Positions 2,513 through 63,853 are shown, numbered from the stretch's first letter. The stretch is DNA of 64,000 nucleotides from Rhodothermales bacterium (GCA_022821875.1 JAJECV010000111.1:5072-69071); one strand, 5' to 3'. The notes: generated by a model from the sequence alone, not told the origin. Made by a program: numbers and translations.

Positions 2513-2987
2513 GAGACCGTCTGCGTTCCGGAGTGTATGAGAGGAAGCCTGCACGAAGGCTGGTTCATGTATTGATATGTCTAGATATGGTGGGGATCGG
2601 TATTTGAAAGCAGCATTGGAGAGATGAATGGGCTGCTAACGATGAAGGGTCCAGAGTTTATGCTCGTATGGATCAGAGAACTCCGGAATATGTTTCTCAT
2701 GGAGCCTTTTGAGCATTCCGTACAGGCGTAACTGTCTGGAATTGTTTGCGGGTCTTTTCAGATATCCTTCACAGTTCGGCCCTTTCAGATCCGCGAAGCA
2801 GCCCTGTAATTTTTTGAAAACCCCCTGCACGGGATTCCCAAATCCGATCATGCTCAGCCCTCTGAATATCATCCCAATGTTGCATACAAATCATTCAGAC
2901 CGTATATTGTACGGCAATACTTAATTGATTTAGCACATTAGCGGCTGTGCCTGTGTTTATTAGATGCGCCCAAAATTAGTGTGAGCA

Positions 2988-5900
2988 ATGAGACTAGACT
3001 TTATCGGTAAACTGGAAGATAAAATACTTTCGGTCGAAGGGCCTGTTTTTAGCTTGTCTTTCTTCGACGACCTCCCGTGTACCCCCCCCATTTTTTGCCG
3101 GAGATACCGATGGCGTGATGTTGCAGATGGATGGATTCTCGCCTTCGCAGCGGCTATTTTCCTGCTTGCAGGAGTGGCAGTCCCCTTCGCTACGATCCAG
3201 GCGGCAGAATTGATATCGTTTCCGTTACATGCAGATAAAACAGGAGAAACGGAACAGCACGGCGACACAGTCTCCGGCAAATATGATCAAGAAGTCCAGG
3301 GGATACGCATACACACCCCAGTGGATTTTAGAAGATCAGATCATCGGCGTGTGGACGCGGCATACGCAGGCAAAAATAGGCCGCTTCCAGTTGCACAGGT
3401 GGCAGCGAATCAGGGAGGAGAGAATGAGCATGTCAGAACTGCTGGCGGGGCTGCGGCTTCACTGGACGATAGCATTTTAGAACCGCATAGGGAGCCACTG
3501 ATCCACCTATTGCCAGAACAATCCTCCGAGGCGGCATCTCACTACCGGGGAAGTGCGCCCCAGGTCGGGGCCGTGCCGACAGTGACGATTAGCGGATTAC
3601 CGGAGAAGATCAACACCACTAATAAGACACACATGTTAACCTTCATGTTTTCGGAGGCTGTAACGGGGTTTGAGAAGTCAGATATAGAGGTGGTTGGGGG
3701 TGTCAAAGGCGGGTTCAACCGTTACTTAAATCAACGCCGCTTTGATTTGACTATCTTTATTTTTGATACAGATGATGTGACGGTCACTGTAAAGGCGAAT
3801 TCGGCGACAGGTAGCGACAACCAAACCGGCCCGGCAACGGCCGTATCTGCCACAGCAGTCTGGGATGCGACGGCTCCAACCGTTGAGATTACCGGTGTTC
3901 CAAGCAAAATCAGTTCCACCGCCAATTTTACGGCCGCCTTCAATTTCTCGGAGACGGTGACCGAGTTTGTAAAGGCGGATGTGATGGTGAGCGGCGGGAC
4001 CAAAGGTGGTTTTTCCGGGAGCGGGAGTCGCTATAGTCTGGTGGTTACCCCAGCCGGTCAATCTGATGTAACCGTCACCGTAAAAGCAAACTCAGCGACG
4101 GATGGTCTCAATACGGGCCCGGCATCGGCGGTCTCGGCCACAGCAGTCTGGGAGATCGCCAGACCACCAACGGTAGAGATCACCGGGGTGCCGGCGAACA
4201 TCAATTCAACAGCGGTCATCACCGCAAATTTCATTTTTTCGGAAGCGGTGACCGGGTTTGTAAAGGGAGATGCGACGGTGAGCGGCGGGACCAAAGGCAG
4301 CTTTTCCGGGAGCGGGAGTCGTTATAGTCTGGCGATCACGCCGGCCGGCGGGTCGGATGTAACGGTCACTGTAAAGGCGAACTCGGCTATAGGCAGTGAC
4401 GGCAACATCACCGGCCCGGAATCTGCGGTCAGTGCCACGGCGATCTGGAATACGGCACCGAACTTGGCCATCACCGGGGTACCCGATAAGATCAATTCTA
4501 TGACGGCTTTTACGGCGATGTTTACATTTTCGGAGGATGTGACCGAGTTTGTAAAGGGAGATGTGACGGTGAGCGGCGGTACAAAAGGTGCTTTTTCCGG
4601 GAACGGGAGTCGTTACAGTCTGGTGGTCACACCGACCGGCGGAGTGAATGTGGTGGTAGAAGTGGCGGCGAACGCGGCGACAGACGGTTTTAACACCGGG
4701 CCGGCAACGGCGGTCAGCGCCACCGCGATCTGGGACGCGACGGCACCGACGGTGGCTATCACCGGGGTGCCGGCCAAGATCAATTCCATGACCGCTTTTA
4801 CGGCGACGTTTACCTTTTCGGAGGATGTGACAGGATTTGAAACGGGGGATGTGACGGTGACCGGCGGCATGAAAAGCAGTTTTACTGGAAGTAGAAGCAG
4901 TTACAGTCTGGAAGTCACGCCGGCGGGAGGCTCCAATGTAACGGTAGAAGTGGCGGTGAACGCGGCGACGGATGGTCTGAATACCGGCCCGGCATCGGCG
5001 GTCTTGGCGACGGCGACGTGGGATGCGGTAGCATTGACTGTTAACATCACTGGTGTTCCAGACAGGATCAATTCCACGACCGATTTTACGGCGGTGTTTA
5101 CATTTTCGGAGGATGTGACCGGATTTGAAACGGGGGATGTGACAGTGACCGGTGGGACGAAGGGTGCTTTTTCCGGGAGCGGGAGCCGTTACAGTCTGGT
5201 GGTCACGCCAACGGGCGGGGAAAATGTAACGGTGGAGGTGACAGCGAATTCGATAACGAATGGTTCCAACACCGGACCAGAATCAGCGGTATCGGCCACG
5301 GCGATCTGGAACGATATTGTGACCACGGTGCCGGAGGCACCTGCGAATTTAATCGCAACGGCTTCTGGACAAACCGAGATTACCCTTTCCTGGAATGCTC
5401 CATCTGACAATGGCGGGGCTGCAATTACGGGGTATCAGATTGAGGTGTCGCCGGATGCGGGAGATACCTGGTCGGATCTGGAGGCAAACACCGGAAGTAC
5501 GGCCACGACCTACATGCACACGGGGCTGACTGAGGGGGACACAAGACATTACCGCGTCTCTGCAATTAATTCGGTCGGCACCGGTATGCCTTCGAATGTG
5601 GCCAGCGCAACAACAGAGGCTACCGCTGCACCGGATTCCCCGACAGGATTTACCGCAAAGGCATCCGGTCCAAACGCAATCCTTCTTTCCTGGAGTGCTC
5701 CATCGAATCATGGCGGGGCCGTGATTACCGGGTATCAGATTGAATGGTCCACGGATGCGGGAGACACCTGGTCCGATCTGGTGGCGGACACCCGCAGTAC
5801 GGCAACCACCTACACGCATACGGGGCTTGCAGCGGCAACCAGATACGATTATCGCGTTTCTGCGATCAATTCGGTTGGGGCAGGTACGCCCTCCAATGTA

Positions 5901-51003: not shown

Positions 51004-52332
51004 ATGACCGGTACAATGGACTCAAAAGATCCGAACCTCGAAAAGATAAAGTTTACGATTGGCACCTGGAATATGGACCATTGGAAGCGGACGAGAGAAC
51101 AGCGGGAAAAGGGATGGGAATATATGCGAACGGAATCCAAAGCGGATGTGATGCTTCTTCAGGAGAGTGTTGCTGCACCGGGTTTGAACCGAAGCCAGTT
51201 TGTCTATCGTGAGATTTCGGGGCATTGCCCGTGGGGGTCCAGTGTGGTTGCGTTTAACGAGGACATGAATGTTCAGGAGATTGATGCGGTGCGCACGCGT
51301 TACGGGGCTAAGCGGTTTAGCATGTTGGGGACATTTCCAGGTGCGGTGATCGTTACACAGGTTGAAGTTCCGGGAATTGGCCCGATCACCTGTGTGAGTG
51401 TTTATGGTCTTATTAATGTCTATGCGCAAACAACGATACTCCGAGTCATCGCCGATTTGATTCCTCTGTTTGATTCCCGGTTTGGCAGCCGGGTAGTGTT
51501 AGGAGGTGATCTCAATATCAGCAGTGCCTGTAACAGGGACAGACTGCACGAGCCGGAACAGATTCGTTACAGGGCCATTCTCAATGCGATAGAGTCTCTG
51601 GGGTTAATAAATCTTGCAAAAACTGCTGAAGACCGGCCAAAGTCAGTACTGAATTGCCCCTGTACCGAAAATGAGTGTTATGAAATTCCAACTTACCGCG
51701 GCGGACAACTTGACTGGCTTTATGCGACACCTGAGCTTGCCCGCAGATGTACGCGCCTGCGCGTTGACCACGATGTGGTCTATAAATTAGAGTTAAGTGA
51801 CCATGCGCCACTGATTGCAGAGTTTGAAATCCCTCCAACCGTGCCGGATCGGATTTGGGATCCGGAAGCATTCGTTGAAGAGATGAAGTTCACTGCGGGC
51901 CCGGAAGCTGCCCGGATTGCCGAGGATCTGATCAACTGGGCAGATCGTAAGCATGGCAAACTCCAATCCCCCGCGCACCGGGTGTCTTATGATCGCTTAC
52001 CGACAGGGATGGCGAGCGGCAAATTGAAGATCTGGTTCCAGTTGGATATCGTTCCCCGGGAAATCATTCAATGGACCTTCAGTATTCTCGCGGATGGCGA
52101 GATCGAAATCAATTTTCAATGGATGATTGCGCCATATGACGATTTAGATGTTAAGGAAAAACTGTGGAATGCGCTCAATCAGATTGAGGGGGTATCCCTT
52201 CAAAAGAATCTCACAGGCCGTCCGAGATTTCGAATCGGAGCGCTTGCGGAACCGGATCGGCTGGAACAGTTCACGAAGGTGTTTTCGGACATGATTGATA
52301 CCACTCTGCGTCGCAGAAATGTGGTCAAATAG
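51004..52332 (+). CDS. Endonuclease/exonuclease/phosphatase (EEP) protein with extra C-terminal domain
   Basis: TWN, LLQE, GGDLN, QLDWL, LSDHAP catalytic motifs; ~160-aa C-terminal extension. Confidence 0.85.
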   Translation: MTGTMDSKDPNLEKIKFTIGTWNMDHWKRTREQREKGWEYMRTESKADVMLLQESVAAPGLNRSQFVYREISGHCPWGSSVVAFNEDMNVQEIDAVRTRYGAKRFSMLGTFPGAVIVTQVEVPGIGPITCVSVYGLINVYAQTTILRVIADLIPLFDSRFGSRVVLGGDLNISSACNRDRLHEPEQIRYRAILNAIESLGLINLAKTAEDRPKSVLNCPCTENECYEIPTYRGGQLDWLYATPELARRCTRLRVDHDVVYKLELSDHAPLIAEFEIPPTVPDRIWDPEAFVEEMKFTAGPEAARIAEDLINWADRKHGKLQSPAHRVSYDRLPTGMASGKLKIWFQLDIVPREIIQWTFSILADGEIEINFQWMIAPYDDLDVKEKLWNALNQIEGVSLQKNLTGRPRFRIGALAEPDRLEQFTKVFSDMIDTTLRRRNVVK

Positions 52333-52599: not shown

Positions 52600-53183
52600 G
52601 TATAAACATTTTCCTTGTCGGGCTTTGCCACGGAGGAATCAAAACTGCATATGGATCATTTCAAACTACTTGCGGAGAATCAAGGCGGCTGGACGCTCTG
52701 TGTTGCCGTGCACGAACCTTGCGCTATCCATCAGAACTCTTGCTGTTACAAAGTTCCAGTGGGCGGGAGTAATGAACTCTTCCAGGAGTTCATACCCAAA
52801 TCTGCTATCCCTGATTACACCGAACCGGGTTGTATCAGGTGCGATAGAGAAGGGCTCAGTGTGGAATCTGGCATCTTCTTGGGCAATTCCAAAGAATACC
52901 AATGGAGGTTCTGTGGAAGAAATAATAAACATCTTCTCAGTGAGGTAGAAAAAAACAGAATTCAATGGTATCCAGGGGCCCAAATACACCTATTTTTTCA
53001 TAATAATATATGTAGCTTCGTGAAGTACCTCATGCCCGGTTTCTGGAAACGATCAATGGGGATAGCGTTATGGTTGGCTCGTAATTGGAACCAAATATAT
53101 TGTGGAATGAGCATCAATTTAAGTGATGGGTCGCTTAAGTTGATAAGGTTTCCCATTAATCAAGGAAGAATAAATCTCTAATC

Positions 53184-53660
53184 ATGATCCCAAAACCAAT
53201 TATAATTTCGGAATTATCACCGCCGGTACTCCCTCCTGGCATCCACATGGCTGACTTAACTACTGTGAAAAGACATTTAGCCTCCAGCAAATGGCGGCAG
53301 AAATTGTTCAATGGATTGGTGGAGGCTTGTAGGGTCCTGAGTAGAGCAGGGTGCCAGCGTCTGTATCTGGATGGAAGTTTCGTTACACCGAAGCCGATTC
53401 CTAATGACTATGATGTCTGCTGGGATCTAAACGGAGTGAACCTCCGGCTTGTGGATCTTGTATTCTTTGACTTCAGCAACGGTCGGGCCGCGCAAAAGGC
53501 CAAGTTCGGCGGAGAGTTTTTTCCGAGTACACATATAGCAGCTGATGCGGATGTAACATTCCTTGAGTTTTTCCAAATTGATACCGGTTCTGGAAAACAA
53601 AAAGGAATCATTGGGGTAGATCTTGCTAACGATCCAGTGCTTAATCCTTTGCGACCATGA
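53184..53660 (+). CDS. Small Pol-beta-superfamily nucleotidyltransferase-like protein (DUF6932-like)
   Basis: LPPGIH, LYLDGSFVTPKPIPNDYD (GS..DxD), KGII. Confidence 0.8.
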   Translation: MIPKPIIISELSPPVLPPGIHMADLTTVKRHLASSKWRQKLFNGLVEACRVLSRAGCQRLYLDGSFVTPKPIPNDYDVCWDLNGVNLRLVDLVFFDFSNGRAAQKAKFGGEFFPSTHIAADADVTFLEFFQIDTGSGKQKGIIGVDLANDPVLNPLRP

Positions 53661-54925
53661 TGATCCTTACTGATAAACAATACGGCGGCACTGCTGATAT
53701 GCTTGCCAAATTCAGGACGACATTGTCTGGAGTGAAAGAGAATAATAACGGAGAGGAATGGCAGCGAGATCTAATAATTGATGCTCTGCAAGCCCAAATC
53801 TCCGAACTTGAAGAAGACATGAAAAACTATCAGTCGCTAAAATCAGGGAAGATTACTGTGAGGAAGCCACAATCACTTGAAACTCTTCCCCTAACACTTA
53901 TTCAAGCTCGGATTGCAAGTGGAATGAGCCAGGCTGAGTTGGCTAAAGTGTTGGGAACAGAAGAAACTAAGTTAAGATGTTATGAAGCGTATGATTACAT
54001 CGGAACTAACCTAGCTACTTTGATTAAGGTTGCTCGCATCCTGAACATTGACGTTACTGATTTACTTGAGAATGAATCATCTCAGGGCAGTTTTCATCTT
54101 GCGTGGAAAAACATTGATGCAGTTCCCTGGGAAAAATTTCCGGCTCGGGAAATGATCAGCCGTAATTGGTTTGATGATCCAGATGATGGAAATTTGACAG
54201 AGGCGACCAAGGCATATTTCCTGCAAGTAGCGGAGACTCATTTTGAATTAGCTCTCCACCGAAAGAGCGTGCATGGTGTGCACCCTTCGGACGAATATGC
54301 TTTAATGGCATGGCAGGTACGGATACTTGAACGAGCGAGTGCATGGATAGAAAAATGGAAACTGCCGGAATTTGTCCTGGATAACAGTTGGCTTCCCGAA
54401 CTCATTGCACTTACCAGGCGACCAGATGGCCCATTTGAGGCACGCAAATTATTGGCTCGTAAGGGCATTGCTCTTGTAGTAGAAAAACATCTGCCTGGGA
54501 CATATCTCGACGGCGCAGTAATGTTTGCTCCGACCGATCATCCCGTAATTGGGTTAACGTTGCGCTTTGATCGAGTAGATAATTTTTGGTTTGTACTCTT
54601 CCACGAATTAGGTCATTTATTTCTACATCTTTTTGGAGGCATGCGCTATGACTTCTTTGATGAATCTCTTGATGAAATCACCATGTCTGAGGACAATATT
54701 GAACAAGAGGCAGACGAATTTGCATTAAATACATTAATTCCTGAAGATCAGTGGAAGCAGTGCCTTTCTCGCTTCTCATTGTCTGAAAAGGCAGTTCAAC
54801 TTGACGCAGAAAGACTCAGGGTTGACGAAAGTATATTAGCCGGTCGAATTCGTAAAGAGCAAAGCAATTACACGATTCTGAATGGGCTTATTCGATCTGG
54901 TGTTCGGGAACAATTTCTGGTGTAA
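53657..54925 (+). CDS. XRE HTH plus ImmA/IrrE metallopeptidase (HigA-like fusion)
   Basis: LIQARIASGMSQAELA HTH; TYLDGA, LTLRFDRVDNFWFVLFHELGH; EQEADEFA. Confidence 0.88.
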   Translation: MMILTDKQYGGTADMLAKFRTTLSGVKENNNGEEWQRDLIIDALQAQISELEEDMKNYQSLKSGKITVRKPQSLETLPLTLIQARIASGMSQAELAKVLGTEETKLRCYEAYDYIGTNLATLIKVARILNIDVTDLLENESSQGSFHLAWKNIDAVPWEKFPAREMISRNWFDDPDDGNLTEATKAYFLQVAETHFELALHRKSVHGVHPSDEYALMAWQVRILERASAWIEKWKLPEFVLDNSWLPELIALTRRPDGPFEARKLLARKGIALVVEKHLPGTYLDGAVMFAPTDHPVIGLTLRFDRVDNFWFVLFHELGHLFLHLFGGMRYDFFDESLDEITMSEDNIEQEADEFALNTLIPEDQWKQCLSRFSLSEKAVQLDAERLRVDESILAGRIRKEQSNYTILNGLIRSGVREQFLV

Positions 54926-54928
54926 AAA

Positions 54929-56020
54929 ATGATTTTAGGTGAAGACATGTACGTACCGGTGTTGAGTTGGAGGCAGGGTGAATATATGGCACTTTACCAC
55001 CTCACATCATCAGTCCAGAAAAAGACTGTACCTCTAATCTTTATTCCACCGATTGAGTTTGATTTTGAGACGAGGAGGAGCAAGAAGACGGTGGATGAGC
55101 ATGTTCGCCCGTTTATTGATCGTTATACGAAACGATGGGGTAAGCACCCAGCCTGGATAGGGCTGCATAGCACAATTGCAAAGGATAGAATGGATAACGG
55201 GATTCATGTTCTTGACTACATTCTTGATGGGCTAAGATCCAATCACGCACATGCTATGCCAGTATTAACACCGGAAAGTGACACAGATACTATTGCGGCC
55301 GCAGCCAGAGCAATTGGTCGAGACAGATATGGTGCTGCACTGCGTATACGGCTTGAGAACTTAATGGCCGAAGATTTTGAAATAGAAGCAGTGAAGTTGG
55401 TAGAGACGCTCTCAAGACCACTTGAGGAGATTGATCTAATCATTGACCTCAGAGCACCGAATTTCGAGCCCTATCAGGACTTTGCCAATGCGTTAATTGC
55501 GCGAATGAAAAGTTTCCGAACTCTTTCGGAGTATCGGAATCTGATATTAGTCTCCTCGGCTATTCCTGACAGTTTTGGGAATATCGAAAAGGGGAATAGT
55601 GAAATTCCACGTCATGATTGGCTGTTCTACAAGGTCGTGATTGACTCTTTATCTTATGAGATGCGTCGCCTGGTCTATGGAGACTACACAATTGTTCACC
55701 CTGAATTTAAGGTTTTGGACATGCGAATGATTCAGCCACCAGGTAAAATCGTATACACTACGCCTAAAACCTGGGCCATCTGCAAAGGTGGTTCGTTTCG
55801 CGGTCATCCTGAACAAATGGTTGATCATTGTAAGACCGTAGTGGAGAATCCCCAATTCCAGTTCCGGGGGGCCGAATTCTCTTATGGTGACCAATATATT
55901 GACCAATATAGTTCGGGAAAAATAAATCCAACTAACCTAACCCGCTGGAAGACCGTTACGATTAATCATCATATTTCAACGGTGGTAGATCAACTCTCCA
56001 ATGCTCTCGATTCACCATAG
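54929..56020 (+). CDS. Beta-family protein (T4 beta / sce7725-like)
   Basis: YVPVL.WRQGE, DLIIDL, YGDYT, FSYGD.YI, WK..TINHH pattern. Confidence 0.85.
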   Translation: MILGEDMYVPVLSWRQGEYMALYHLTSSVQKKTVPLIFIPPIEFDFETRRSKKTVDEHVRPFIDRYTKRWGKHPAWIGLHSTIAKDRMDNGIHVLDYILDGLRSNHAHAMPVLTPESDTDTIAAAARAIGRDRYGAALRIRLENLMAEDFEIEAVKLVETLSRPLEEIDLIIDLRAPNFEPYQDFANALIARMKSFRTLSEYRNLILVSSAIPDSFGNIEKGNSEIPRHDWLFYKVVIDSLSYEMRRLVYGDYTIVHPEFKVLDMRMIQPPGKIVYTTPKTWAICKGGSFRGHPEQMVDHCKTVVENPQFQFRGAEFSYGDQYIDQYSSGKINPTNLTRWKTVTINHHISTVVDQLSNALDSP

Positions 56021-56573
56021 CAATTTTAATCAGTCTGGTTAATTCATCTTCAGACACTTTTTCAACTAGTAGCTTGTATAGTTTGGTGCGGGACGCGCGA
56101 AGATTCGCTGGGCGAGTGTCATAATTTAAAAGAATATCTATAACTTCGCTGCGCCACAGGAGGTGTGCAAGAATGAATGGATCAACAGAAGGATTCCTCT
56201 CAGCTCTTCGCACATCTCTCAGAACAATCTGACCTCTTAAATCAACCTGGACCTCCTTCAGACCACACCATGCGGGGATCATTTCGAGGGTGGACTTCAA
56301 GTGCTTAGTTGCCACAACCAATGTTAGTCTATGTAATGCTTGGGTATAAATCTTCATTTGGCCTTTTAATCGATCAAGGCGGTCTCGCTCGCTTTTGATT
56401 TCGTACCCATGAAATTCATCACCTATCACGGTTACATCCACGCGTCTCTTTGCATGAGCCAGTCCAAGTTCGTGAATCACTAACTCGCCGGTATTATTGG
56501 TGTGTATTCCTGAGCATCCCCCAAATAAGATGTTACGGATATCAGGATCAAGAATGTTTGAAGTTTGAATCAC
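55962..56573 (-). CDS. sce7726-family (PD-(D/E)xK-like) protein
   Basis: DIR, HELG, RVDV, HGYEIKSERDRLDRL..Q..Y, PAWCG, LLWRSE. Confidence 0.85.
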   Translation of the reverse strand: MIQTSNILDPDIRNILFGGCSGIHTNNTGELVIHELGLAHAKRRVDVTVIGDEFHGYEIKSERDRLDRLKGQMKIYTQALHRLTLVVATKHLKSTLEMIPAWCGLKEVQVDLRGQIVLRDVRRAERNPSVDPFILAHLLWRSEVIDILLNYDTRPANLRASRTKLYKLLVEKVSEDELTRLIKIAMVNREHWRVDLPPLKYDD

Positions 56574-57084: not shown

Positions 57085-57780
57085 TCATTCTGCTACGATT
57101 ACGATGGCTTTTTCTTTGGGCCCATAAAATGGATCACTCACCGCCAGCGCATCTTCTCTGTTCAATTGAATATCTGGAGCAGACGAGGGTTTGCATGAGT
57201 AGCGACCTTTATGGTCAATTTCTACTTGGACCTGCTGCATGTGATTTCCTTGGTTGATGATAAGAACTCTTTTCCCTAAGTAATCAGAGTCGTAGCAGGC
57301 GTAGGCGCTGCCAGTTTCCTGAATGCTGCCTGGTATACCGATTTCAATGATTTCCCCGACTCTGTGAAATGGCACTTCACGTTCAGAAGCCAACTGTCTC
57401 AGTTCCTTTACTCCACTCTTTTCTGCGCATTCTTTCTCCGATCTCAATCTTGCATCCAAATCGTGGGTGGGAAAAGGCTTGCATACCTGACTGGTGAGGG
57501 CCTGGGCAAGTTCAGGATCATCAACCCGGTAGATATTTTTATTTGCAAGCCATTGCATCAGCCCCCCGCGGGTATAGTCATCCGAGTATAATGAATCCAA
57601 AAATTTTGCAGGGTTGATTTCCCCATTTTCGGCCTCAATTACCATATCACCAAGTGGAGTGAGAATCGTCATTTTCTGCGAATTGCTATCACGATTAATA
57701 AACAAGAACACGCTGACAAGTAGTGCTATACCCAATAGCCACCAGGGGACATGATCTTTTTTCTTTCTTGCTTCCGTCAT
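57085..57780 (-). CDS. Membrane-anchored hypothetical protein, possible C-terminal double-psi beta-barrel-like domain
   Basis: Basic N-terminus plus TM WWLLGIALLVSVFLFI; 4 Cys; GKRVLIIN..VQVEI..C..DIQLNREDA resembles RlpA/DPBB; starts 11 bp after the E2-E1 gene. Confidence 0.7.
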   Translation of the reverse strand: MTEARKKKDHVPWWLLGIALLVSVFLFINRDSNSQKMTILTPLGDMVIEAENGEINPAKFLDSLYSDDYTRGGLMQWLANKNIYRVDDPELAQALTSQVCKPFPTHDLDARLRSEKECAEKSGVKELRQLASEREVPFHRVGEIIEIGIPGSIQETGSAYACYDSDYLGKRVLIINQGNHMQQVQVEIDHKGRYSCKPSSAPDIQLNREDALAVSDPFYGPKEKAIVIVAE

Positions 57781-57791
57781 TTTACAGATAT

Positions 57792-59615
57792 CTAATGTGG
57801 CTCAATCATGTTGTTGGCATTGCGGGTGCTGCGATGAAGAATCTGAGGAATTCCCAGCTCCTCAGATTGCTCCAGAACGACAAAATCAGTGGCGGTATCT
57901 GGGTTCTGGACAAACTGGACAACCAGTTTGGTAGCTAGGCTTGACCATAAACCTAAGTCATCGTTTCGAGCCTCAAACACAGGATGGAAGCATCCAACGC
58001 CCTCCCATTGGATACCGTCATCCCTGAGTCGATCACGTTCCTCTTTGAGATAGGGGGCTAAACTGTCATTAAAATTGTCTACGGGAAACCTCATTCTATG
58101 TTCATAGAAAGCATAGAATCTGCGAGCTTTCCTACCGATTGAGATGGAAACGAAGTGCTTGGGTTGTTCCCAGTCTAATGAGTTAAGATGAGCGGTTACA
58201 TCATCAGATCCGGTAGCATCAATGATTAGATCTGCTTTTAGGATCTCCTCAGGGGGCTCGGTTTCCGGGCAGAATTTCTCTGCAATCGATCGCACACATG
58301 CGTGTGGGTTTGCAGCGTTCAGACGATCCTTAAGTCTCTCGGCTTTTTGTCCTTCCAAATCATACATAGTTAGTGTGTGTCGGACGAGATTTCCGGCCAC
58401 GAAATGATCCATATCAACCAGAGTTACTTCGGTTATCCCACCACGAACAAGGTGCTCAGCCAGCGGCGCTCCAAGGGCTCCGACTCCAATGACAATGGTC
58501 TTCATGTTTCTCAATAGTTCAGGTAATTGACCCCGCGTAGCAAGTGCAGTTGGATGCCAGTTCTCGGTTTTCAACCAAGGGAGTTGTTTGTTATCACCGA
58601 GGTTTCTTCCACGATAGGCATCCCACAGACTACTTTTATTGCTTCGAAAACCATCATAATGATTTTCAAAAGCAGGCAACAAGAGTGCTTGCCAGTGGAG
58701 GAGATGAGGATATTCACCAATTACCTTGGGAATTAAAGCACCAAGGAGCAAGATGGTTGGCTGACCATCGGGGTTTAGGCGAATTGCTTTTTTGATCAAG
58801 TCATTGAGTTCCCGTCTTGGGCAGGATTTGCGCAAGTCCCCCCAGGTCCGAGGTTGTTGCCACGGATCAACCACCGGCAGTTCATTCAATTGAATCCACA
58901 GACCTTTTGCAGGCTCAGATGGATAAGTAGACAGGTGTGTCCCCCAATTCAGTTCTCGGAGAATATTTTTATCTGAATCACGATAAGCTTGAACAACTCC
59001 AAAATTCCCGGAAATCACACTTAGATCAACAATGCCATATTTGGGTGCATTGAAAGAAGATATTTTATGATTTAGTTTTTCCGACACAATGACAGTATGA
59101 AGAACCTTCTTTATCGGCTTAGGTTGATGAAAGGGGAGCTCAAAGTGCTCCCCTTCACGCATGAGATCGTCATTCGCGGCACACTCTAACCACTTGACCG
59201 CACGTTCAAATGTCCATTTGAGCCGAGTACGCCAATCTCGTGGTTCTGTAGATGCACCCACCCGATCCAATACTCTTAGATGACTGTCAAGGCATAGGAA
59301 TGAATTTTGCCAGGGCTTGGTGGATGCGGGCATCTGGATGGGATACTGATGCGGGAAAAGCCCGGTAATACTATTCTTCTTGGCAGGAAAGAAATCAATA
59401 TGTCCGTCTGGATAAAGACTGGAAACCCGTACGTACCAATCTGTCGTATCAGGCACCGGACTGTTTTCCGGTACATCTACAGAGATACTACATTGAATCG
59501 TCCATAGTTTATCTTCGGTGCACCATTTCCATTTATCCAAAAGTCTTACCCCCGCAATCCCCAGTACTCTCTGTGTAGCGGCGCAAAGAATGTCGGGGAC
59601 CTCGGGAGAATTCAT
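57792..59615 (-). CDS. Cap2-like E2-E1 (ThiF) fusion ubiquitin-like transferase
   Basis: E2 part YPDG..FPHQ..FLCLD (Cys108); E1 IGVGALGA, DMD..GNLVRH, KAE, IIDATG, EGVGCFHPVF (Cys~542); 607 aa. Confidence 0.9.
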   Translation of the reverse strand: MNSPEVPDILCAATQRVLGIAGVRLLDKWKWCTEDKLWTIQCSISVDVPENSPVPDTTDWYVRVSSLYPDGHIDFFPAKKNSITGLFPHQYPIQMPASTKPWQNSFLCLDSHLRVLDRVGASTEPRDWRTRLKWTFERAVKWLECAANDDLMREGEHFELPFHQPKPIKKVLHTVIVSEKLNHKISSFNAPKYGIVDLSVISGNFGVVQAYRDSDKNILRELNWGTHLSTYPSEPAKGLWIQLNELPVVDPWQQPRTWGDLRKSCPRRELNDLIKKAIRLNPDGQPTILLLGALIPKVIGEYPHLLHWQALLLPAFENHYDGFRSNKSSLWDAYRGRNLGDNKQLPWLKTENWHPTALATRGQLPELLRNMKTIVIGVGALGAPLAEHLVRGGITEVTLVDMDHFVAGNLVRHTLTMYDLEGQKAERLKDRLNAANPHACVRSIAEKFCPETEPPEEILKADLIIDATGSDDVTAHLNSLDWEQPKHFVSISIGRKARRFYAFYEHRMRFPVDNFNDSLAPYLKEERDRLRDDGIQWEGVGCFHPVFEARNDDLGLWSSLATKLVVQFVQNPDTATDFVVLEQSEELGIPQILHRSTRNANNMIEPH

Positions 59616-59639
59616 TACTCGAATCGTTAATATTCGTAA

Positions 59640-60107
59640 TTATGCAAATTTGCCACCACGCGGCTGAACAGATTTCTTATTCTTACCCTCGGAGTTACCA
59701 GAGCCTTGAGTCTCATCTTTCACTTCTGCATTAGGTGCAAATTTCTTGACAAGTTCAATGCCATTCTCGCAAGCAGATTTCGAATTATAGCCCTCGCTGG
59801 AGATGGCAATGATTTTGTTGTTTCCACTTTGCAGTCTCCATCGGTATTCCTTGGCTTGATTCTCGTACACCTCAAATTCTGGTGTACCGCCCTGTCCGTG
59901 GTGGCCGTCGGCCCCCGGTTTCGTGAGGTCATGAATCGGGGCAGTTGGTGCAAGCCGTTGAACACGGTCAATGTTTGCTTCTGCCGTGGCCCTGCGTGTA
60001 AAGGACTCGCCAGGAACAGCGATCTCCTCATGGTTTGCGGCATAAAATGTCCAGCGGTACTGATCCTTTACGTCTTGAAAGATTTTGAAATATGGTTTCA
60101 TGATCAT
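59640..60107 (-). CDS. YegP/UPF0339 tandem DUF1508 protein with extended C-terminal tail ending GGKFA
   Basis: Two repeats F.IFQD..QYRW.F.AAN.E.IA..GE.F and FEVYE..EYRWRL.SGNNKIIA.SSEGY.SK..CENGI; tail GSGNSEGKNKKSVQPRGGKFA. Confidence 0.88.
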   Translation of the reverse strand: MIMKPYFKIFQDVKDQYRWTFYAANHEEIAVPGESFTRRATAEANIDRVQRLAPTAPIHDLTKPGADGHHGQGGTPEFEVYENQAKEYRWRLQSGNNKIIAISSEGYNSKSACENGIELVKKFAPNAEVKDETQGSGNSEGKNKKSVQPRGGKFA

Positions 60108-60312
60108 ATCAGTTTAAGGTTGAAGTGTCTCCTCCTCGTTTGAGGGAACACAGGATGATTGATTAAGATCTCGCAGAAATATTCTCCAAGATCCGTCTGG
60201 ATGTGTACAAGCCAACCACAGGCGAGTCCTTAACTGCAACCCGCTAATCGCGAGCGCCGTACCCTCAAGTTGCTTGCTATTGTTATATTTGACTGATCTA
60301 GCCATTGTAAGC

Positions 60313-60356
60313 GGCGAATTCGCCAATTCCGATTTCGTCATTTTCGAGAATACGAC
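60313..60356. promoter_or_regulatory. Palindromes in the divergent promoter (candidate CapH-type operators)
   Basis: Perfect GGCGAATTCGCC at 60313-60324 and imperfect TCGTCATTTTC/GAGAATACGA just downstream. Confidence 0.45.
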
Positions 60357-60380
60357 TTCGTAACTTAAAGGTTTCAGAAA

Positions 60381-60728
60381 ATGAAAAAAAATCACCCAAC
60401 TGAAATTTTTCCCAGCCGACTCCGCAGCACGCGAGAGAAACGGGCACTGAACCAGGCTGAATTAGCTAAGCGGGCAGGTCTACAGGCTTCCGCCGTTTCT
60501 CATTTTGAGACAGGAACGAGAAAGCCATCTTTTGATAATCTTCGCCGACTTGCTGATGCACTGGATGTAACTACAGATTATTTGATTGGTCGAGTAGGTG
60601 ATAATCAGGTCAGTGTAGGCCATGACCAGTTATATCGTAACATAGGTAACCTGACGGCTGAGGATCGTGATTTTGCGGAAAGCTTCATCAAACTTCTTGC
60701 CCAAAAGTCAAAGAAGCATAGGCAATGA
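60381..60728 (+). CDS. XRE-family HTH repressor (CapH-like)
   Basis: RLRSTRE..LNQAELAKRAG..VSHFETGTRKPS..LADALDVTTDYLIG. Confidence 0.88.
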   Translation: MKKNHPTEIFPSRLRSTREKRALNQAELAKRAGLQASAVSHFETGTRKPSFDNLRRLADALDVTTDYLIGRVGDNQVSVGHDQLYRNIGNLTAEDRDFAESFIKLLAQKSKKHRQ

Positions 60729-61603
60729 ATCGCAATTCTTTTCGCTTCAAAGTGGTGTCGGTTGCAGAAAAGGTTGTCTCAGATCAAGACATCAAGCAGC
60801 TGCCCATAAATCCCATTACAATAGCCCGTAGCCAGGGTATTGAGGTCACGCCTCAACCAGTGCATGCTCAGGGATTTTCCGGAATGCTCATGCGTGTTAA
60901 CAACAAGTTTGGAATTACTTATGCTACACATATTGATAGTGTTGGCTTCAAGAACTTCAGCATTGCACATGAACTGGGACATTACTTCTTGCCTGGGCAC
61001 ATTGATGCGGTATTTGCGGCGGATAGTCCTCACACTTCCAGTGCGGGATTCGTCTCCACCGACAGGTATGAAATGGAAGCAGACTGTTTTGCTGCGCGAT
61101 TGCTGATGCCAAATAGGTTGTTCAAGGAAGCAATGTTGGGTGCGGATGAAGGTCTTAACGGGATAGAGGAACTTTCCCAAATCTGCCAGACATCCCTCAC
61201 GGCAACAGCGATACGTTATACAGAGTGTGTTCAGTATCCAATGGCTGTCATTGTGAGTGTCGGTGATAAGGTCAGTTATTGCTTTATGTCTGAGTCACTG
61301 AAAGAGGTTCGCGGTCTTACTTGGATCAGTAAAAATCAATGTCTACCCAAAAATACGGTCACCTATGATTTCAATCAGAATGATCAGCGAGTCCAAGGTG
61401 CACAACGAGATGCGGATATATCAGATCTGCAAGACTGGTTTGGAGGTGACGTTTCCGTCCAGCTTGAGGAGGAGGTTCAAGGCTTAGGACATTATGGGAA
61501 GACGCTAACCGTATTGACTGCTCCAGACCTTTTTGATAAACTGGAAGAAGTTGATGCAAATGAAGCCCTTCATAAATCATGGGAGCCAAAATTCAGGCTT
61601 TAA
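60725..61603 (+). CDS. ImmA/IrrE-family metallopeptidase (CapP-like)
   Basis: FSIAHELGH, EMEADCFAARLLMP, TSLTATAIRY, C-terminal GAF-like region; overlaps HTH stop (ATGA). Confidence 0.88.
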   Translation: MNRNSFRFKVVSVAEKVVSDQDIKQLPINPITIARSQGIEVTPQPVHAQGFSGMLMRVNNKFGITYATHIDSVGFKNFSIAHELGHYFLPGHIDAVFAADSPHTSSAGFVSTDRYEMEADCFAARLLMPNRLFKEAMLGADEGLNGIEELSQICQTSLTATAIRYTECVQYPMAVIVSVGDKVSYCFMSESLKEVRGLTWISKNQCLPKNTVTYDFNQNDQRVQGAQRDADISDLQDWFGGDVSVQLEEEVQGLGHYGKTLTVLTAPDLFDKLEEVDANEALHKSWEPKFRL

Positions 61604-61684: not shown

Positions 61685-63853
61685 ATGACTGAATCTGTAT
61701 CAAATAGGCCCATCGCCGACGAAAACCTGATATCTAGCATTGCCACGAAGCACGGAAATATACCAGAGACACTCTTTGTCAGTCTAACCAGTGAGACCGC
61801 CGTCGGTCAGGTGTTGCTATTGGACTATGATTCAGCCACTTTAGCTGTTCACGATTATCATAAGGAGCAGGTAGGTGGTCTAGCACGCGGTATGTTTCTG
61901 ATTTCAGGTCCCTCTCCTTCAAACGAGGGAGCCAGTTTTGTACTTATGCGGGTAGTCGGAGCGAAACGTTTAGCCAATCAGACATCTACTGATGAGGCAC
62001 GACTTACTGCTGCGCAGGAAAGTATCGGTCAGGATATCTGGTCAGATAAACTTGCCAAATGGATCGCTAACGAAATTGCTCTGGGTGGTATTGAGGCTCA
62101 TATACTTGGAACATTAACATGGAGTAGTGGGGGACTTCGGTTTGCGGAGGATACGGCCAATTATTATTCTGCGCGTGGGGCGTATGTCTGGAAACCTACG
62201 GGTCCCTTGCTTGAGAGTATCGTGAATCTGTCGCAACGGGGAAATAGCATTGATCTTTCAGGGCTGAGTAACTATGATAGATCGGATATCAGGGTTCGCG
62301 TTGCAAAGACCCGCTTCGCAGCTGCTGATGACCGAGAAAGAAGTGATGTGCATGTTCCGGTTCGGATTGATCCCACTGATCTGCTCAAGCGGCGGACAGC
62401 TTTTTTCGGAATGTCTCGAAGCGGGAAATCTAATGCGATGAAAATTACAGCCCAAGCTGTCTACATGCTCCGTAAAGAACATCCGGATTTCAGGGTGGGT
62501 CAATTGATTTTTGATCCCAATGGTGAGTATGCCCAAGACAATCCACAGGACGGACGCGGCCTCCATCGGATTCATGAGTTGGTAAATAAACCTCGGGGCG
62601 GAGAGATTGAGACCTATGGAACGTATGCTCCTCCGACCGACACTGAAAGAAAGATCACAAAGATCAATTTTTTTGGGAATCCGATTCCTCTGAACAAACG
62701 AACTGATAGGGACTATGTCGAGAAATCACTGGAGCAACTCCTTGTGGGACGTGATCTCATAAGGGAAAGGATGTCGGCAGAGACGACCCGTTTTACAAGT
62801 AATTTCCGAGATGCTGACCTTTCTATTCCGGCAAATCTCGCCGACCGTAGTGTTGCTACCCGATTTCACCGGGCTATAATGGTCCATCAAGTTGCGCTTG
62901 CTGCAGCGGGATTTGAAGCCCCTCCGTATCCCAATATCAAGGGACTGTTTGGCAAGGATTTTTGTAATGCTCTCCAGTCCAACGAGAATAGTACGTCAGA
63001 TCATGTAGACAAGTACCGCTGGGCGGGCGAAATTCTAAGAAATCCTACACCGTCTTGGGATCAACTTAAGGCTGCATTTGAGGCTGTTCACCGCTTTATT
63101 CATGATAAAACGAGTTATTATCGATCATTTGAGAAGAAATACAGTGATAGATCCAATTCTGGAGATAATTGGGTAGATGCTCGTTTGGAATCTCTTCTGT
63201 TTATCTTTGATACCCCCAATGGGGTCAGAACATTCCAGGATTTGCGTGACCAGCACTCGATAAATACATCTTCTGATTACGCGGATGATATTGTCAACGA
63301 CCTGAAAGCGGGTAAGCTCGTGATTTTTGATCAGTCAATTGGCGACCCTAAATTAAATCAGCAGGCTGCCGAACGTATCATGTGGAGGGTTTTTCGGGAA
63401 CAGCAGAAGATATTCACATCAGGTAAAAATCATCTTCCGTATCAACAGCATGTATTAGTGTACATTGAAGAGGCCCACAATCTTTTACCGCGCACTGGCA
63501 CCAGAGATGTTTTGTCTACGGTGTGGGCACGGGCAGCAAAAGAAGGTGGAAAAATGAATCTCGGAGTAGTCCTGGCCACTCAGGCACCGAGTTCGGTTCT
63601 TCCCGAGATATTGAGCGAGACTGATAATTGGTTCATCGCACACCTGAATTCAGATAACGAAGCAAGGGTGGTAGAGCGTTACTTAGACTTCGCACATTTC
63701 ATTCCTCAAATTCGCAGAGTATCAGAGCCGGGTTTTATCAGACTTCGAACCCTTTCATCAGGGTACACGGTGCCGGTTCAACTGGATCGGTTTAAACTTC
63801 CGGATCTTTTACCCGAACCGGACGCTAATACCAAAAATGAACTCTTTAGTTGA
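61685..63853 (+). CDS. HerA/FtsK-like (DUF87) ATPase
   Basis: HAS-barrel-like N-terminus; Walker A GMSRSGKS; FDPNGEY; Walker B YIEEAH; KEGGK; LATQ. Confidence 0.9.
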   Translation: MTESVSNRPIADENLISSIATKHGNIPETLFVSLTSETAVGQVLLLDYDSATLAVHDYHKEQVGGLARGMFLISGPSPSNEGASFVLMRVVGAKRLANQTSTDEARLTAAQESIGQDIWSDKLAKWIANEIALGGIEAHILGTLTWSSGGLRFAEDTANYYSARGAYVWKPTGPLLESIVNLSQRGNSIDLSGLSNYDRSDIRVRVAKTRFAAADDRERSDVHVPVRIDPTDLLKRRTAFFGMSRSGKSNAMKITAQAVYMLRKEHPDFRVGQLIFDPNGEYAQDNPQDGRGLHRIHELVNKPRGGEIETYGTYAPPTDTERKITKINFFGNPIPLNKRTDRDYVEKSLEQLLVGRDLIRERMSAETTRFTSNFRDADLSIPANLADRSVATRFHRAIMVHQVALAAAGFEAPPYPNIKGLFGKDFCNALQSNENSTSDHVDKYRWAGEILRNPTPSWDQLKAAFEAVHRFIHDKTSYYRSFEKKYSDRSNSGDNWVDARLESLLFIFDTPNGVRTFQDLRDQHSINTSSDYADDIVNDLKAGKLVIFDQSIGDPKLNQQAAERIMWRVFREQQKIFTSGKNHLPYQQHVLVYIEEAHNLLPRTGTRDVLSTVWARAAKEGGKMNLGVVLATQAPSSVLPEILSETDNWFIAHLNSDNEARVVERYLDFAHFIPQIRRVSEPGFIRLRTLSSGYTVPVQLDRFKLPDLLPEPDANTKNELFS

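What the first reader, a model, noticed from the sequence alone, without database searches (positions are those of the whole stretch)
57085..61603. Candidate new ubiquitin-like conjugation system: Cap2-type E2-E1 ligase paired with a YegP/DUF1508 protein instead of a CD-NTase
Seen: minus-strand operon YegP-like (155 aa), 24 bp, E2-E1 fusion (607 aa, both putative catalytic Cys and ATP motifs intact), 11 bp, membrane protein; divergent from an HTH plus metallopeptidase pair. No CD-NTase, cyclic-nucleotide effector or beta-grasp Ubl is present. Known: in type II CBASS, Cap2 adenylates the C-terminal Gly/Ala of the CD-NTase encoded just upstream and conjugates it to targets. Here that position holds a tandem DUF1508 protein with a CD-NTase-like tail. 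Inference: the ligase attaches YegP domains to phage or host targets, a signalling-independent use of Cap2 that I do not know to be described.
Basis: partly seen in the sequence, partly recalled or inferred. Interest (0 to 1): 0.93.

Follow-up and report, generated by a model that had tools for sequence, protein, structure and literature searches.

The report
YegP-type protein as Cap2 ligase substrate
A bacterial ubiquitin-ligase-like enzyme that normally tags an immune signalling enzyme is here paired with a small YegP-type protein carrying the same C-terminal recognition tail, which points to a signal-free protein-tagging variant of a known anti-phage system.

Summary
On the minus strand lie a tandem-DUF1508 protein (155 aa), a full-length Cap2 E2-E1 ligase (607 aa; PADLOC E1-E2 E=1.9e-168) and a 231-aa protein with one N-terminal hydrophobic helix. 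They are divergent from CapH/CapP regulators. HMM searches found no CD-NTase, Cap3 or MBL gene or remnant in the window or its genome.

The main new evidence is the tail. The DUF1508 family (18 sequences) has a variable, disordered 22-residue tail ending in a near-invariant RFA. The same motif ends the CD-NTases, MBL proteins and one Pycsar cyclase encoded directly upstream of related Cap2 genes (61 of 73 partner ORFs). It also ends E. cloacae CdnD (…TGRFA), whose tail was caught adenylated in the Cap2 E1 site. None of 27 other DUF1508 proteins has it.

The arrangement recurs in two Rhodothermales genomes, all five genes are under purifying selection, and the linked Cap2s form one clade among CBASS Cap2s.

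This is most likely a DNA-damage-induced Cap2 system that conjugates YegP domains. It is a new variant of a known kind, with 6A-MBL operons as a precedent. Conjugation, targets and the anti-phage role are untested.

The parts
59640..60107 (-). Tandem-DUF1508 (YegP-type) protein, 155 aa, the proposed Cap2 substrate
   Evidence: PF07411 x2, E=2e-33. NCBIfam HVO_2922 family, 3.1e-31. AF2 pLDDT 81.4 with two beta-beta-beta-alpha repeats. Foldseek best hits are E. coli YegP 2K8E and SO3888 2K49, TM(target) 0.85. 17 homologues at 56-99% identity. dN/dS 0.18-0.30.
59643..59708 (-). Disordered C-terminal tail (residues 134-155, QGSGNSEGKNKKSVQPRGGKFA) ending in the Cap2-substrate motif
   Evidence: pLDDT below 50 for residues 135-155. 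The linker varies, but F154 is invariant and R/K153 and A/G155 are conserved in at least 90% of 18 sequences. The same x[FY][AG] ending occurs in 61 of 73 partner ORFs upstream of related Cap2 genes and in E. cloacae CdnD...KTGRFA. It is absent from 27 of 27 other DUF1508 proteins.
57792..59615 (-). Cap2-type E2-E1 fusion ligase, 607 aa
   Evidence: PADLOC E1-E2 PDLC00848, E=1.9e-168, residues 2-594. ThiF domain at residues 367-489. PDB 7TO3 Cap2, E=7.9e-75 over residues 7-575. dN/dS 0.18 against L001.
59292..59294 (-). Codon of Cys108, the predicted E2 catalytic cysteine
   Evidence: Translates to C. Aligns to position 109 of 7TO3, the C109A site. Invariant in 32 homologues.
57990..57992 (-). 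Codon of Cys542, the predicted E1 catalytic cysteine
   Evidence: Translates to C. Aligns to the C548A position of 7TO3. Invariant in 32 homologues.
57085..57780 (-). 231-aa protein with a basic N-terminus and one hydrophobic helix; accessory third gene of unknown function
   Evidence: No hit in Pfam, PADLOC, NCBIfam or PHROGs. Only 7 homologues. Present in L002, not found in L001 or its genome. Absent from all 80 CBASS/MBL loci. dN/dS 0.20. AF2 pLDDT 40.8, unusable. Atlas scores of 0.85-0.87 to DPBB-like phage clusters are a lead only.
60108..60380 (.). Divergent promoter/operator region between the DUF1508 gene and capH
   Evidence: 82% mean column identity across the window, L001 and L002, with conserved palindrome-like blocks near capH. 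Inverted repeats at 60304-60333 and 60333-60389. The sigma-70 consensus scan was not above chance: 6 sites found, 5.8 expected.
60381..60728 (+). CapH-type HTH repressor, 115 aa
   Evidence: PADLOC capH 2.8e-25. HTH_3 3.7e-15. dN/dS 0.05-0.08. The divergent, upstream position is the one described for capH/capP.
60725..61603 (+). CapP-type Zn metallopeptidase, 292 aa
   Evidence: PADLOC capP 9.5e-62. Peptidase_M78 8.8e-11. HELGH motif at residue 82. dN/dS 0.12-0.21.

Best explanation
This is a five-gene, horizontally acquired defence- or stress-type module. A CBASS-type Cap2 ligase has swapped its usual substrate, the CD-NTase, for a small tandem-DUF1508 (YegP-type) protein that carries the same C-terminal recognition tail.

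Proposed mechanism:
1. Inferred from family knowledge: CapH represses the divergent operon. Single-stranded DNA produced by DNA damage or phage infection activates CapP, which cleaves CapH and switches the operon on.
2. Inferred from the sequence motif and the solved E. cloacae complex: the disordered tail of the DUF1508 protein enters the Cap2 E1 adenylation site and Ala155 is adenylated. The protein then passes as a thioester from Cys542 (E1) to Cys108 (E2).
3. Inferred: Cap2 ligates the DUF1508 protein through its C-terminus to amino groups of one or more target proteins.
4. Speculative: the attached YegP domains interfere with a phage or host process directly. No nucleotide second messenger is involved, and no Cap3 is present to reverse the mark. 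Others have proposed that tandem DUF1508 resembles single-stranded nucleic-acid binders.

The 231-aa membrane-anchored protein is an accessory gene, not a core part.
For: Cap2 identity and catalytic integrity:
- The PADLOC E1-E2 model matches at E=1.9e-168, and 7TO3 at E=7.9e-75 with C108 and C542 on the published C109 and C548.
- Both Cys and the ATP loop are invariant in 32 homologues.

The tail:
- In 18 family members the linker varies, but the extreme C-terminus is R/K-F-A/G: F154 is invariant, and one sequence ends RFG.
- AF2 predicts residues 135-155 as disordered, the layout described for type II CD-NTases.
- In the 80 loci of related Cap2s, the gene directly upstream is a CD-NTase in 60, an MBL-fold protein in 11 and a Pycsar cyclase in 1. 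The other 8 have no room upstream.
- Of the 73 partner ORFs, 61 end in x[FY][AG], 8 more carry the motif within the last 10 residues, and 4 lack it.
- E. cloacae CdnD ends ...KTGRFA, and this tail was seen AMP-conjugated in the Cap2 E1 site (passages of bioRxiv 10.1101/2022.03.31.486616). The same 381-aa CD-NTase and 600-aa Cap2 pair is in L132-L135.
- Control: 0 of 27 other DUF1508 proteins from a 201-genome sample of the phylum end this way. Most are about 110 aa and stop right after the second domain.

Recurrence and selection:
- L001 and L002 keep CapH-CapP divergent from DUF1508-Cap2.
- Four Cap2/DUF1508 homologue pairs share contig lengths.
- dN/dS is 0.05-0.30 for all five genes.
- The DUF1508-linked Cap2s form one clade (SH-aLRT 100) next to CD-NTase-linked Cap2s (SH-aLRT 97).

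Independence from a cyclase:
- HMM searches found no CD-NTase in the window's genome or in L001's genome.

Complex model:
- Score 0.62, best of 3 controls 0.00. That mark was reached by 58 of 80 solved complexes and 2 of 110 mismatched pairs. The runs agree in at least 52% of contacts and the partner's pLDDT is at least 80. My own alignments were used, so these counts hold only roughly.

Precedents in the literature:
- Cap3 is dispensable for CBASS defence.
- CapH/CapP regulate diverse immune operons.
- YegP genes lie behind the DNA-damage regulators CapK/CapS in 57 cases.
- DUF1508x2-Ubl fusions occur in 7 Bub operons.
Against: - There is no experimental evidence for adenylation, thioester formation or conjugation of any DUF1508 protein.
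- The confident contacts in the complex model join DUF1508 residues 40-51, 94-100 and 147-151 to the Cap2 E2 domain (residues 5-15, 69, 123-131). They do not place the last four residues in the E1 pocket. The model was 1:1, whereas Cap2 works as a 2:2 dimer.
- The Ledvina preprint states that all Cap2-encoding CBASS also encode Cap3. Its absence here has no studied precedent.
- No effector or target is identified. The third gene is not constant and gave no usable model.
- In L002 the Cap2 reading frame is broken once, in an A-homopolymer. This is either an assembly error or a decaying copy.
- The family is small: 17 DUF1508 clusters and about 9 Cap2 sequences. In the 401-genome phylum sample it was seen only in the window's genome and one congener.
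- The window's own tail has K153 where at least 90% of the family has R.
- The direction of the partner swap rests on a tree rooted with a single long-branch outgroup.
Confidence: 0.7

Rival explanations
1. Same biochemistry, different role. The module is a general DNA-damage or stress response rather than an anti-phage system: YegP-type proteins are ligated to host proteins to protect or remodel them.
For: - YegP is described as stress-induced.
- CapH/CapP respond to DNA damage in general.
Against: - The module lies in a low-GC island packed with defence-type genes: matches to PD-Lambda-2 B and C, HerA and sce7726.
- It is variable within the genus: 1 of 4 congeners carries it.
- Its Cap2 clade nests among CBASS and 6A-MBL Cap2s, and these are anti-phage systems.
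Confidence: 0.2
2. The DUF1508-tail protein is not a modifier but a regulator or sensor of Cap2. It occupies the E1 site, or is ligated only to Cap2 itself, and the true output is something else, for example the 231-aa protein or an unlinked gene.
For: - The complex model's confident interface is with the E2 domain rather than the E1 pocket.
- Tandem DUF1508 has been proposed as an infection-sensing, sPC4/Whirly-like module at the N-terminus of Menshen NsnA.
- In vitro, E. cloacae CdnD is ligated to Cap2 itself.
Against: - The near-invariant terminal F-A/G, with A and G as the only alternatives, is the signature of a residue that is adenylated, not merely bound.
- No other conserved partner exists in the three loci.
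- The third gene is dispensable in L001.
Confidence: 0.08
3. It is a decayed type II CBASS. The CD-NTase and Cap3 were lost and an unrelated YegP gene landed next to an orphan Cap2 by chance.
For: - CD-NTase, Cap3 and a recognisable effector were not found.
- L001 has an IS21-like element right after Cap2.
- L002's Cap2 has a frameshift.
Against: - The DUF1508 family carries a dedicated tail with the Cap2 motif, absent from 27 of 27 other DUF1508 proteins.
- The pairing recurs at 56-99% (DUF1508) and 52-93% (Cap2) identity.
- All genes are under purifying selection.
- The catalytic residues are invariant.
- There is no CD-NTase remnant in any frame.
Confidence: 0.02

Closest known systems
Type II CBASS Cap2 with its CD-NTase (E. 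cloacae CdnD-Cap2-Cap3; PDB 7TO3; Ledvina et al. preprint 10.1101/2022.03.31.486616, passages read)
   Same: - Same E2-linker-E1 ligase family over its full length, with both catalytic Cys aligned.
- The substrate gene lies directly upstream.
- The substrate has a disordered C-terminal tail ending ...G-R-F-A.
- CapH/CapP are encoded divergently upstream, as in hundreds of CBASS.
   Different: - The substrate is a 155-aa non-enzymatic tandem-DUF1508 protein instead of a nucleotide cyclase.
- No Cap3 JAB peptidase was found, whereas 50 of 50 downstream neighbours scanned in related loci are Cap3.
- There is no cyclic-nucleotide effector, so no second-messenger step can be proposed.
[quoted passage not shown]
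   Same: - A Cap2-type ligase is paired with a non-CD-NTase partner that carries the same tail. The 11 MBL partners found here end ...SRFA, TRFG and the like.
- It is reported as anti-phage and can be linked to CapH/CapP or CapK/CapS.
   Different: - The partner there is a metallo-beta-lactamase-fold enzyme, and Cap3 is present, either fused or separate.
- The window's Cap2 scores 120.7 bits against the 320-bit cut-off of the 6A-MBL cap2_3 model.
- No MBL gene was found in the window.
Bub operons whose Ubl is a tandem DUF1508 fused to one beta-grasp domain (Gong et al., PMC11601603, passages read; 7 cases)
   Same: Tandem DUF1508 is the moiety carried by a ubiquitin-like conjugation machine, often under CapH/CapP-type control.
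   Different: - There the E1 recognises a C-terminal beta-grasp domain, and the enzymes are separate Bub E1 and E2 proteins plus a peptidase.
- Here there is no beta-grasp. Recognition would be through a short CD-NTase-type tail by a Cap2 fusion enzyme.
Stand-alone yegP genes downstream of the DNA-damage regulators CapK/CapS (PMC13373217, passages read; 57 cases)
   Same: A YegP-type gene is the first gene behind a DNA-damage-responsive immune regulator pair.
   Different: - The main text of that paper never mentions Cap2 (0 occurrences).
- The regulators are a kinase and repressor rather than CapH/CapP.
- Its supplementary dataset could not be read.

Membership tests
Cap2 (CBASS E2-E1 fusion ligase) | Full-length E2-linker-E1 architecture homologous to characterised Cap2 | tested here: met
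   PDLC00848 E=1.9e-168 over residues 2-594 of 607. 7TO3 E=7.9e-75 over residues 7-575.
Cap2 (CBASS E2-E1 fusion ligase) | E2 and E1 catalytic cysteines and the ATP-binding glycine loop | tested here: met
   C108 and C542 align to C109 and C548 of E. cloacae Cap2. These Cys and G377/G379/G382 are invariant in 32 sequences.
Type II CBASS | CD-NTase encoded in the operon | tested here: not met
   No hit in the six-frame window scan (best E=2.2). No PF18144 or PDLC00822 match in the genome, which is 95.75% complete.
Type II CBASS | Cap3 JAB isopeptidase | tested here: not met
   A Cap3 profile built from 50 neighbours gave a best E of 0.22 in the window. PDLC00889 has no match in the genome, but its control rang in none of the 14 control genomes.
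Type II CBASS | Cyclic-nucleotide-activated effector | tested here: not met
   The only other operon gene, the 231-aa protein, matches no PADLOC, Pfam, NCBIfam or PHROGs family. It has no homologue in the 80 CBASS/MBL loci.
Type II CBASS | Substrate with a disordered C-terminal tail and a conserved terminal Gly or Ala | tested here: met
   Met by the DUF1508 protein, not by a CD-NTase: tail pLDDT below 50 and a terminal RFA/RFG that is conserved.
6A-MBL system | MBL-fold partner and an E2-E1-JAB protein passing the NF058523 cut-off | tested here: not met
   120.7 bits against a cut-off of 320. The MBL profile's best E in the window is 1.9.
CapH/CapP regulator pair | HTH repressor plus M78/IrrE-type Zn peptidase with HExxH, encoded upstream of and divergent from the regulated operon | tested here: met
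   capH 2.8e-25 and capP 9.5e-62. HELGH motif. The divergent layout is conserved in L001 and L002 and matches the description read. DNA binding and cleavage were not tested.
DUF1508 / YegP (UPF0339) | Tandem PF07411 repeats forming a YegP-like pseudo-dimer | tested here: met
   Two repeats, E=2e-33. Foldseek 2K8E and 2K49, E about 1e-9, TM(target) 0.85.
Bacterial Ubl (Bil/Bub type) | Beta-grasp domain at the C-terminus | tested here: not met
   The AF2 model has only two DUF1508 repeats and a disordered tail. There is no Ubl family hit.
Ubiquitin-like conjugation (functional class) | ATP-dependent adenylation, thioester transfer and isopeptide formation with the DUF1508 protein | not testable with these tools
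   This needs biochemistry. There is only a predicted complex: score 0.62, best control 0.00.

The most novel reading that the evidence does not exclude
A short, portable C-terminal tail (…T-x-I-x-G-G-R-F-A/G) is enough to make a protein a substrate of Cap2-type ligases, and it has been grafted onto at least four unrelated folds: CD-NTase, MBL, Pycsar cyclase and tandem DUF1508. In the DUF1508 case the substrate has no enzymatic activity. YegP domains would then act as a true non-beta-grasp protein modifier, a ubiquitin-like tag without the ubiquitin fold. On DNA damage or infection it would be ligated irreversibly (no Cap3) to phage or host proteins and block them directly. That would also give the long-orphan YegP/DUF1508 family its first mechanistic role.
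Probability: 0.45. Interest if true: 0.85.

Novelty: new variant of a known kind. Interest (0 to 1): 0.7.

Why it matters
Cap2 is the best-understood bacterial relative of the ATG7/ATG3/ATG10 conjugation machinery, yet its physiological targets are still poorly defined. What conjugation achieves is also entangled with cyclase activation.

A natural Cap2 system whose substrate is a 155-aa non-enzymatic protein separates conjugation from nucleotide signalling. That would make target hunting by mass spectrometry much simpler.

It would also show that Cap2 recognition lies mainly in a transplantable tail. The MBL and Pycsar-cyclase partners found here support that. If so, the tail could be used to predict further substrates from sequence alone.

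Finally, it links three separate recent observations about DUF1508/YegP: DUF1508-Ubl fusions in Bub operons, yegP genes behind CapK/CapS, and DUF1508 as a putative sensor in Menshen. Together they suggest one testable idea, that YegP domains are immune or stress modules delivered by conjugation.

Tried and rejected
Third gene (231 aa):
- The AF2 model with 8 sequences reached only pLDDT 40.8, so no fold search was made on it.
- Two Atlas look-ups scored 0.85-0.87, below the 0.9 bar. They point weakly to DPBB/RlpA-like phage clusters and are a lead only.
- PHROGs, Pfam, PADLOC and NCBIfam gave no hit.

Expression:
- The look-up of sequencing runs listed no RNA holder. The 4 DNA holders come from one sponge-metagenome study, and 3 of them are possible sources of this DNA.

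Promoter:
- The sigma-70 consensus scan was at chance level, 6 sites found against 5.8 expected. No promoter is claimed.

More DUF1508-Cap2 loci:
- The viral-contig scan with the DUF1508 alignment gave one weak, unrelated hit.
- The viral scan with the Cap2 alignment gave 5 ordinary CBASS loci.
- The plasmid tblastn gave 32 records, all below 37% identity. The two haloarchaeal records I opened show a ~370-aa upstream gene, a longer Cap2 and a SAVED-domain gene, which looks like ordinary CBASS.
- The metagenome scan returned only distant Cap2s at 31-38% identity.
Co-location for four pairs therefore rests on equal contig lengths only.

CD-NTase elsewhere in relatives:
- L002's genome has one about 730 kb away. 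It sits beside a patatin-like gene, and its C-terminus has no GRFA-type tail, so I judged it unrelated.

Rejected ideas:
- Decayed CBASS (see the rivals).
- An anti-CBASS decoy carried by a mobile element. The protein is encoded with its own conserved Cap2, and no CD-NTase was found in 2 of the 3 host genomes.

Tree:
- 96 rows, quick IQ-TREE with LG+G4.
- Left out: Cap2 ORFs under 560 aa; L002, L003, L004 and L014 (own-genome copy, or frameshifted or duplicate copies); L006, L007, L009, L010, L011 and L013 (ThiF-only hits); exact duplicates; and P0008 and P0019-P0035.

Literature:
- 'Not described' rests on the searches, and on passages read.
- Supplementary tables could not be read and may list such loci. 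Examples are the operon tables of PMC11601603 and Dataset EV2 of PMC13373217.

Full report
**1. The observation**

On the minus strand there is a 155-aa ORF (59640-60107), then 24 bp, a 607-aa ORF (57792-59615), then 11 bp, and a 231-aa ORF (57085-57780). A 115-aa HTH gene (60381-60728) and an overlapping 292-aa peptidase gene (60725-61603) lie divergently on the plus strand.

- The 155-aa protein has two DUF1508 repeats (PF07411, E=2e-33).
- The 607-aa protein matches the PADLOC CBASS E1-E2 model PDLC00848 end to end (E=1.9e-168). It also matches the solved E. cloacae Cap2, 7TO3 (E=7.9e-75).
- Its C108 and C542 fall on the two positions mutated to Ala in that structure. Those are the published catalytic C109 and C548.
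- Both cysteines and the GxGxxG loop are invariant in 32 homologues.
- The divergent pair matches PADLOC capH (2.8e-25) and capP (9.5e-62).
- The 231-aa protein has a basic N-terminus, one hydrophobic helix and no family match.

**2. What is missing**

I built profiles from 24 CD-NTases, 6 MBL proteins and 50 Cap3 proteins of related loci, and used one PycC as a single query. None found anything in any of the six frames of the 64-kb window; the best E was 0.12.

The window's genome is 95.75% complete. It has no SMODS (PF18144), PADLOC cyclase (PDLC00822) or JAB (PDLC00889) match. The JAB control rang in none of the 14 control genomes, so that blank is weak.

The DUF1508 protein has no beta-grasp. 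AF2 gives two confident repeats and nothing else folded (pLDDT 81.4).

**3. The tail**

A search of 5.8 billion proteins found 17 relatives of the DUF1508 protein at 56-99% identity, all 150-155 aa long.

- In the alignment, the ~20 residues after the second repeat vary freely. The last three residues are R/K-F-A, with F154 invariant and one sequence ending RFG.
- AF2 predicts residues 135-155 as disordered.
- A variable linker, a fixed extreme C-terminus and Ala/Gly as the only alternatives are what is described for Cap2 substrates. [quoted passage not shown]

I then looked at 80 metagenome loci encoding Cap2 relatives at 31-38% identity.

- The gene directly upstream of Cap2 is a CD-NTase in 60, an MBL-fold protein in 11 and a Pycsar-type cyclase in 1. 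The remaining 8 contigs end too early to tell.
- None of the 80 has a DUF1508 gene.
- Of the 73 partner ORFs, 61 end in x[FY][AG], mostly GGRFA, GGRYA or GGRFG. Eight more have the motif within the last ten residues, and four lack it.
- The DUF1508 family consensus ends PRGGRFA.
- Viral-contig loci L132-L135 carry the E. cloacae-type pair with the …AEPQKTGRFA ending.

As a control, I sampled 201 genomes of the phylum, of which 32 have DUF1508 genes. None of the 27 other DUF1508 proteins recovered ends this way. The usual tandem form is about 110 aa and stops right after the second repeat. The tail is therefore a specific acquisition of this family, and it is the Cap2 recognition tail.

**4. 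Recurrence, selection and history**

- Two Rhodothermales genomes (L001 at 76% and L002 at 72% Cap2 identity) keep the same CapP-CapH // DUF1508-Cap2 layout.
- Four further Cap2/DUF1508 homologue pairs share contig lengths: 10166, 10324, 2623 and 217859.
- Pairwise dN/dS is 0.05-0.30 for all five genes.
- In a 96-row Cap2 tree, the window, L001 and the seven closest homologues form one clade (SH-aLRT 100) on a long stem. It is grouped with two CD-NTase-linked Cap2s (SH-aLRT 97), inside a radiation where the MBL partner requires at least three changes.
- The tree is rooted on one long-branch outgroup. 'DUF1508 replaced a CD-NTase' is therefore a parsimony inference, not a demonstrated order of events.
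- The system is patchy. In 401 genomes of the phylum, only the window's genome and one of four congeners have it.
- It lies in a 44-47% GC block, against 52-58% elsewhere in the window.

Two blemishes remain. L002's Cap2 frame is broken once in an A-homopolymer. L001 has an IS21-like element directly after Cap2 and lacks the third gene.

**5. The third gene**

The 231-aa protein has 7 homologues. It is present in L002 and on contigs whose lengths match those of two Cap2/DUF1508 homologues, but it was not found in L001's genome or in any of the 80 CBASS/MBL loci. Its fold could not be predicted (pLDDT 40.8), and the Atlas leads to DPBB-like phage clusters are below the trust level. I treat it as an accessory gene.

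**6. The complex model**

ESMFold2 with my alignments gave a score of 0.62 against a best control of 0.00. That mark was reached by 58 of 80 solved complexes and 2 of 110 mismatched pairs. The runs agree in at least 52% of contacts and the partner's pLDDT is at least 80. Because my own alignments were used, these counts hold only roughly.

- The confident contacts join the first DUF1508 helix (residues 40-51), residues 94-100 and tail residues 147-151 to the Cap2 E2 domain (residues 5-15, 69, 123-131). They do not reach the E1 pocket.
- The solved Cap2-CdnD complex is 2:2. Its main interface is under the E1 domain, and a second, smaller one involves the dimer-related E2 domain.
- A 1:1 model cannot reproduce that geometry. 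The model therefore supports binding but does not show tail insertion.

**7. Mechanism proposed**

1. CapH represses the divergent operon. Single-stranded DNA from damage or infection activates CapP, which cleaves CapH (family knowledge). The intergenic region is 82% conserved across the three loci, with palindrome-like blocks.
2. Cap2 adenylates Ala155 of the DUF1508 protein and passes it from C542 to C108.
3. Cap2 ligates it to target amines.
4. Without a cyclase, an effector or Cap3, the output would be the modification itself.

Steps 2 to 4 are inferred. Step 4 is the least certain.

Relevant background:
- Cap3 is dispensable for CBASS defence.
- Tandem DUF1508 has been likened to sPC4/Whirly single-stranded nucleic-acid binders and proposed as a sensor in Menshen.
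- DUF1508x2-Ubl fusions exist in 7 Bub operons.
- yegP genes follow the DNA-damage regulators CapK/CapS in 57 cases.

**8. Comparison and novelty**

The ligase is a member of the Cap2 family, and the regulators are members of the CapH/CapP family. The system is not a type II CBASS, because CD-NTase, Cap3 and effector were all tested and not met. It is not 6A-MBL either, because there is no MBL gene and the score is below that family's cut-off.

It works like both of them at the conjugation step. A non-CD-NTase partner for Cap2 has a precedent in 6A-MBL, so this is a new variant of a known kind rather than a new category.

In the searchable library I found no paper pairing DUF1508/YegP with Cap2. 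Supplementary tables were closed and could hold such loci.

**9. Verdict**

It is over-stated on unprecedentedness and on the membrane protein, and untested on targets. Interest is 0.70, and confidence in the proposed mechanism is 0.70.

Noticed in passing
L065:1315-2385 (+), with Cap2 at 2385-4202 and Cap3 at 4183-4677: A Pycsar-type cyclase (PADLOC PycC, E=2.1e-32) carries the full CD-NTase-style tail (...GGYTERRQVTQVKGGRFA). It sits directly upstream of Cap2 and Cap3, with a 253-aa ORF containing hydrophobic stretches on the opposite strand. This looks like a Cap2-regulated Pycsar. I did not search the literature for such a system.
   Followed up: partly
L020, L030, L042, L059, L062, L070, L071, L073, L074, L076, L077 (gene upstream of Cap2): Eleven of the 80 related Cap2 loci have a metallo-beta-lactamase-fold partner instead of a CD-NTase. 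Eight end in the x[FY][AG] motif at the C-terminus and two more carry it within the last ten residues. On the Cap2 tree this partner type needs at least three changes, so partner swapping recurs.
   Followed up: partly
L067, L072, L075 (C-termini of the CD-NTases upstream of Cap2): Some partner proteins carry extra residues after the motif (...GGRFGRKCF, ...GGRFAI, ...ARFAIPE). They look like Ubl-type precursors that would need trimming, perhaps by Cap3, before adenylation. Sequencing errors are not excluded.
   Followed up: no
window 52657-52929 (+): A decayed DUF1508-like relic lies in an ~850-bp gap between genes. It is 29% identical to residues 6-98 of the 155-aa protein, including the inter-repeat linker (tblastn E=2e-10). 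It is not detected by Pfam.
   Followed up: partly
window 53184-56020 (+): Three genes look like a PD-Lambda-2-type defence system next door: DUF6932 (6.2e-31), an HTH plus M78 peptidase (PADLOC PD-Lambda-2_B, 4.5e-73) and a Beta_protein (PF14350 1.5e-76; PD-Lambda-2_C 2.3e-41).
   Followed up: no
window 61685-63853 (+) and 63850-end; L001 1771-3933 and 461-1774: A HerA-like ATPase (722 aa; PADLOC HerA 1.1e-16) is followed by a gene whose 437-aa homologue in L001 has no family match. The pair lies next to CapP in both the window and L001, but not in L002. It is probably a separate two-gene defence system.
   Followed up: partly
window 55962-56573 (-) and 51004-52332 (+): A sce7726-family protein (NF033832, 2.6e-42; phrog_984) and a 442-aa protein with a weak endonuclease/exonuclease/phosphatase match (24.0 bits, just under the 24.5-bit cut-off) flank the island. 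GC drops from about 0.56 to about 0.44 near 51-52 kb. No tRNA gene is in the window.
   Followed up: no
L001 7815-8900: An IS21-like element sits immediately after Cap2, where the window and L002 have the 231-aa gene. It has direct repeats at its end and a transposase fragment; the IS21 label is my own recall and comes from no call.
   Followed up: partly
Foldseek hit 7b5h_AD: The tandem DUF1508 model also matches part of a baseplate protein of the Anabaena contractile injection system (prob 1.00, TM(query) 0.47). This hints that DUF1508-like modules occur in phage-tail-like machines.
   Followed up: no
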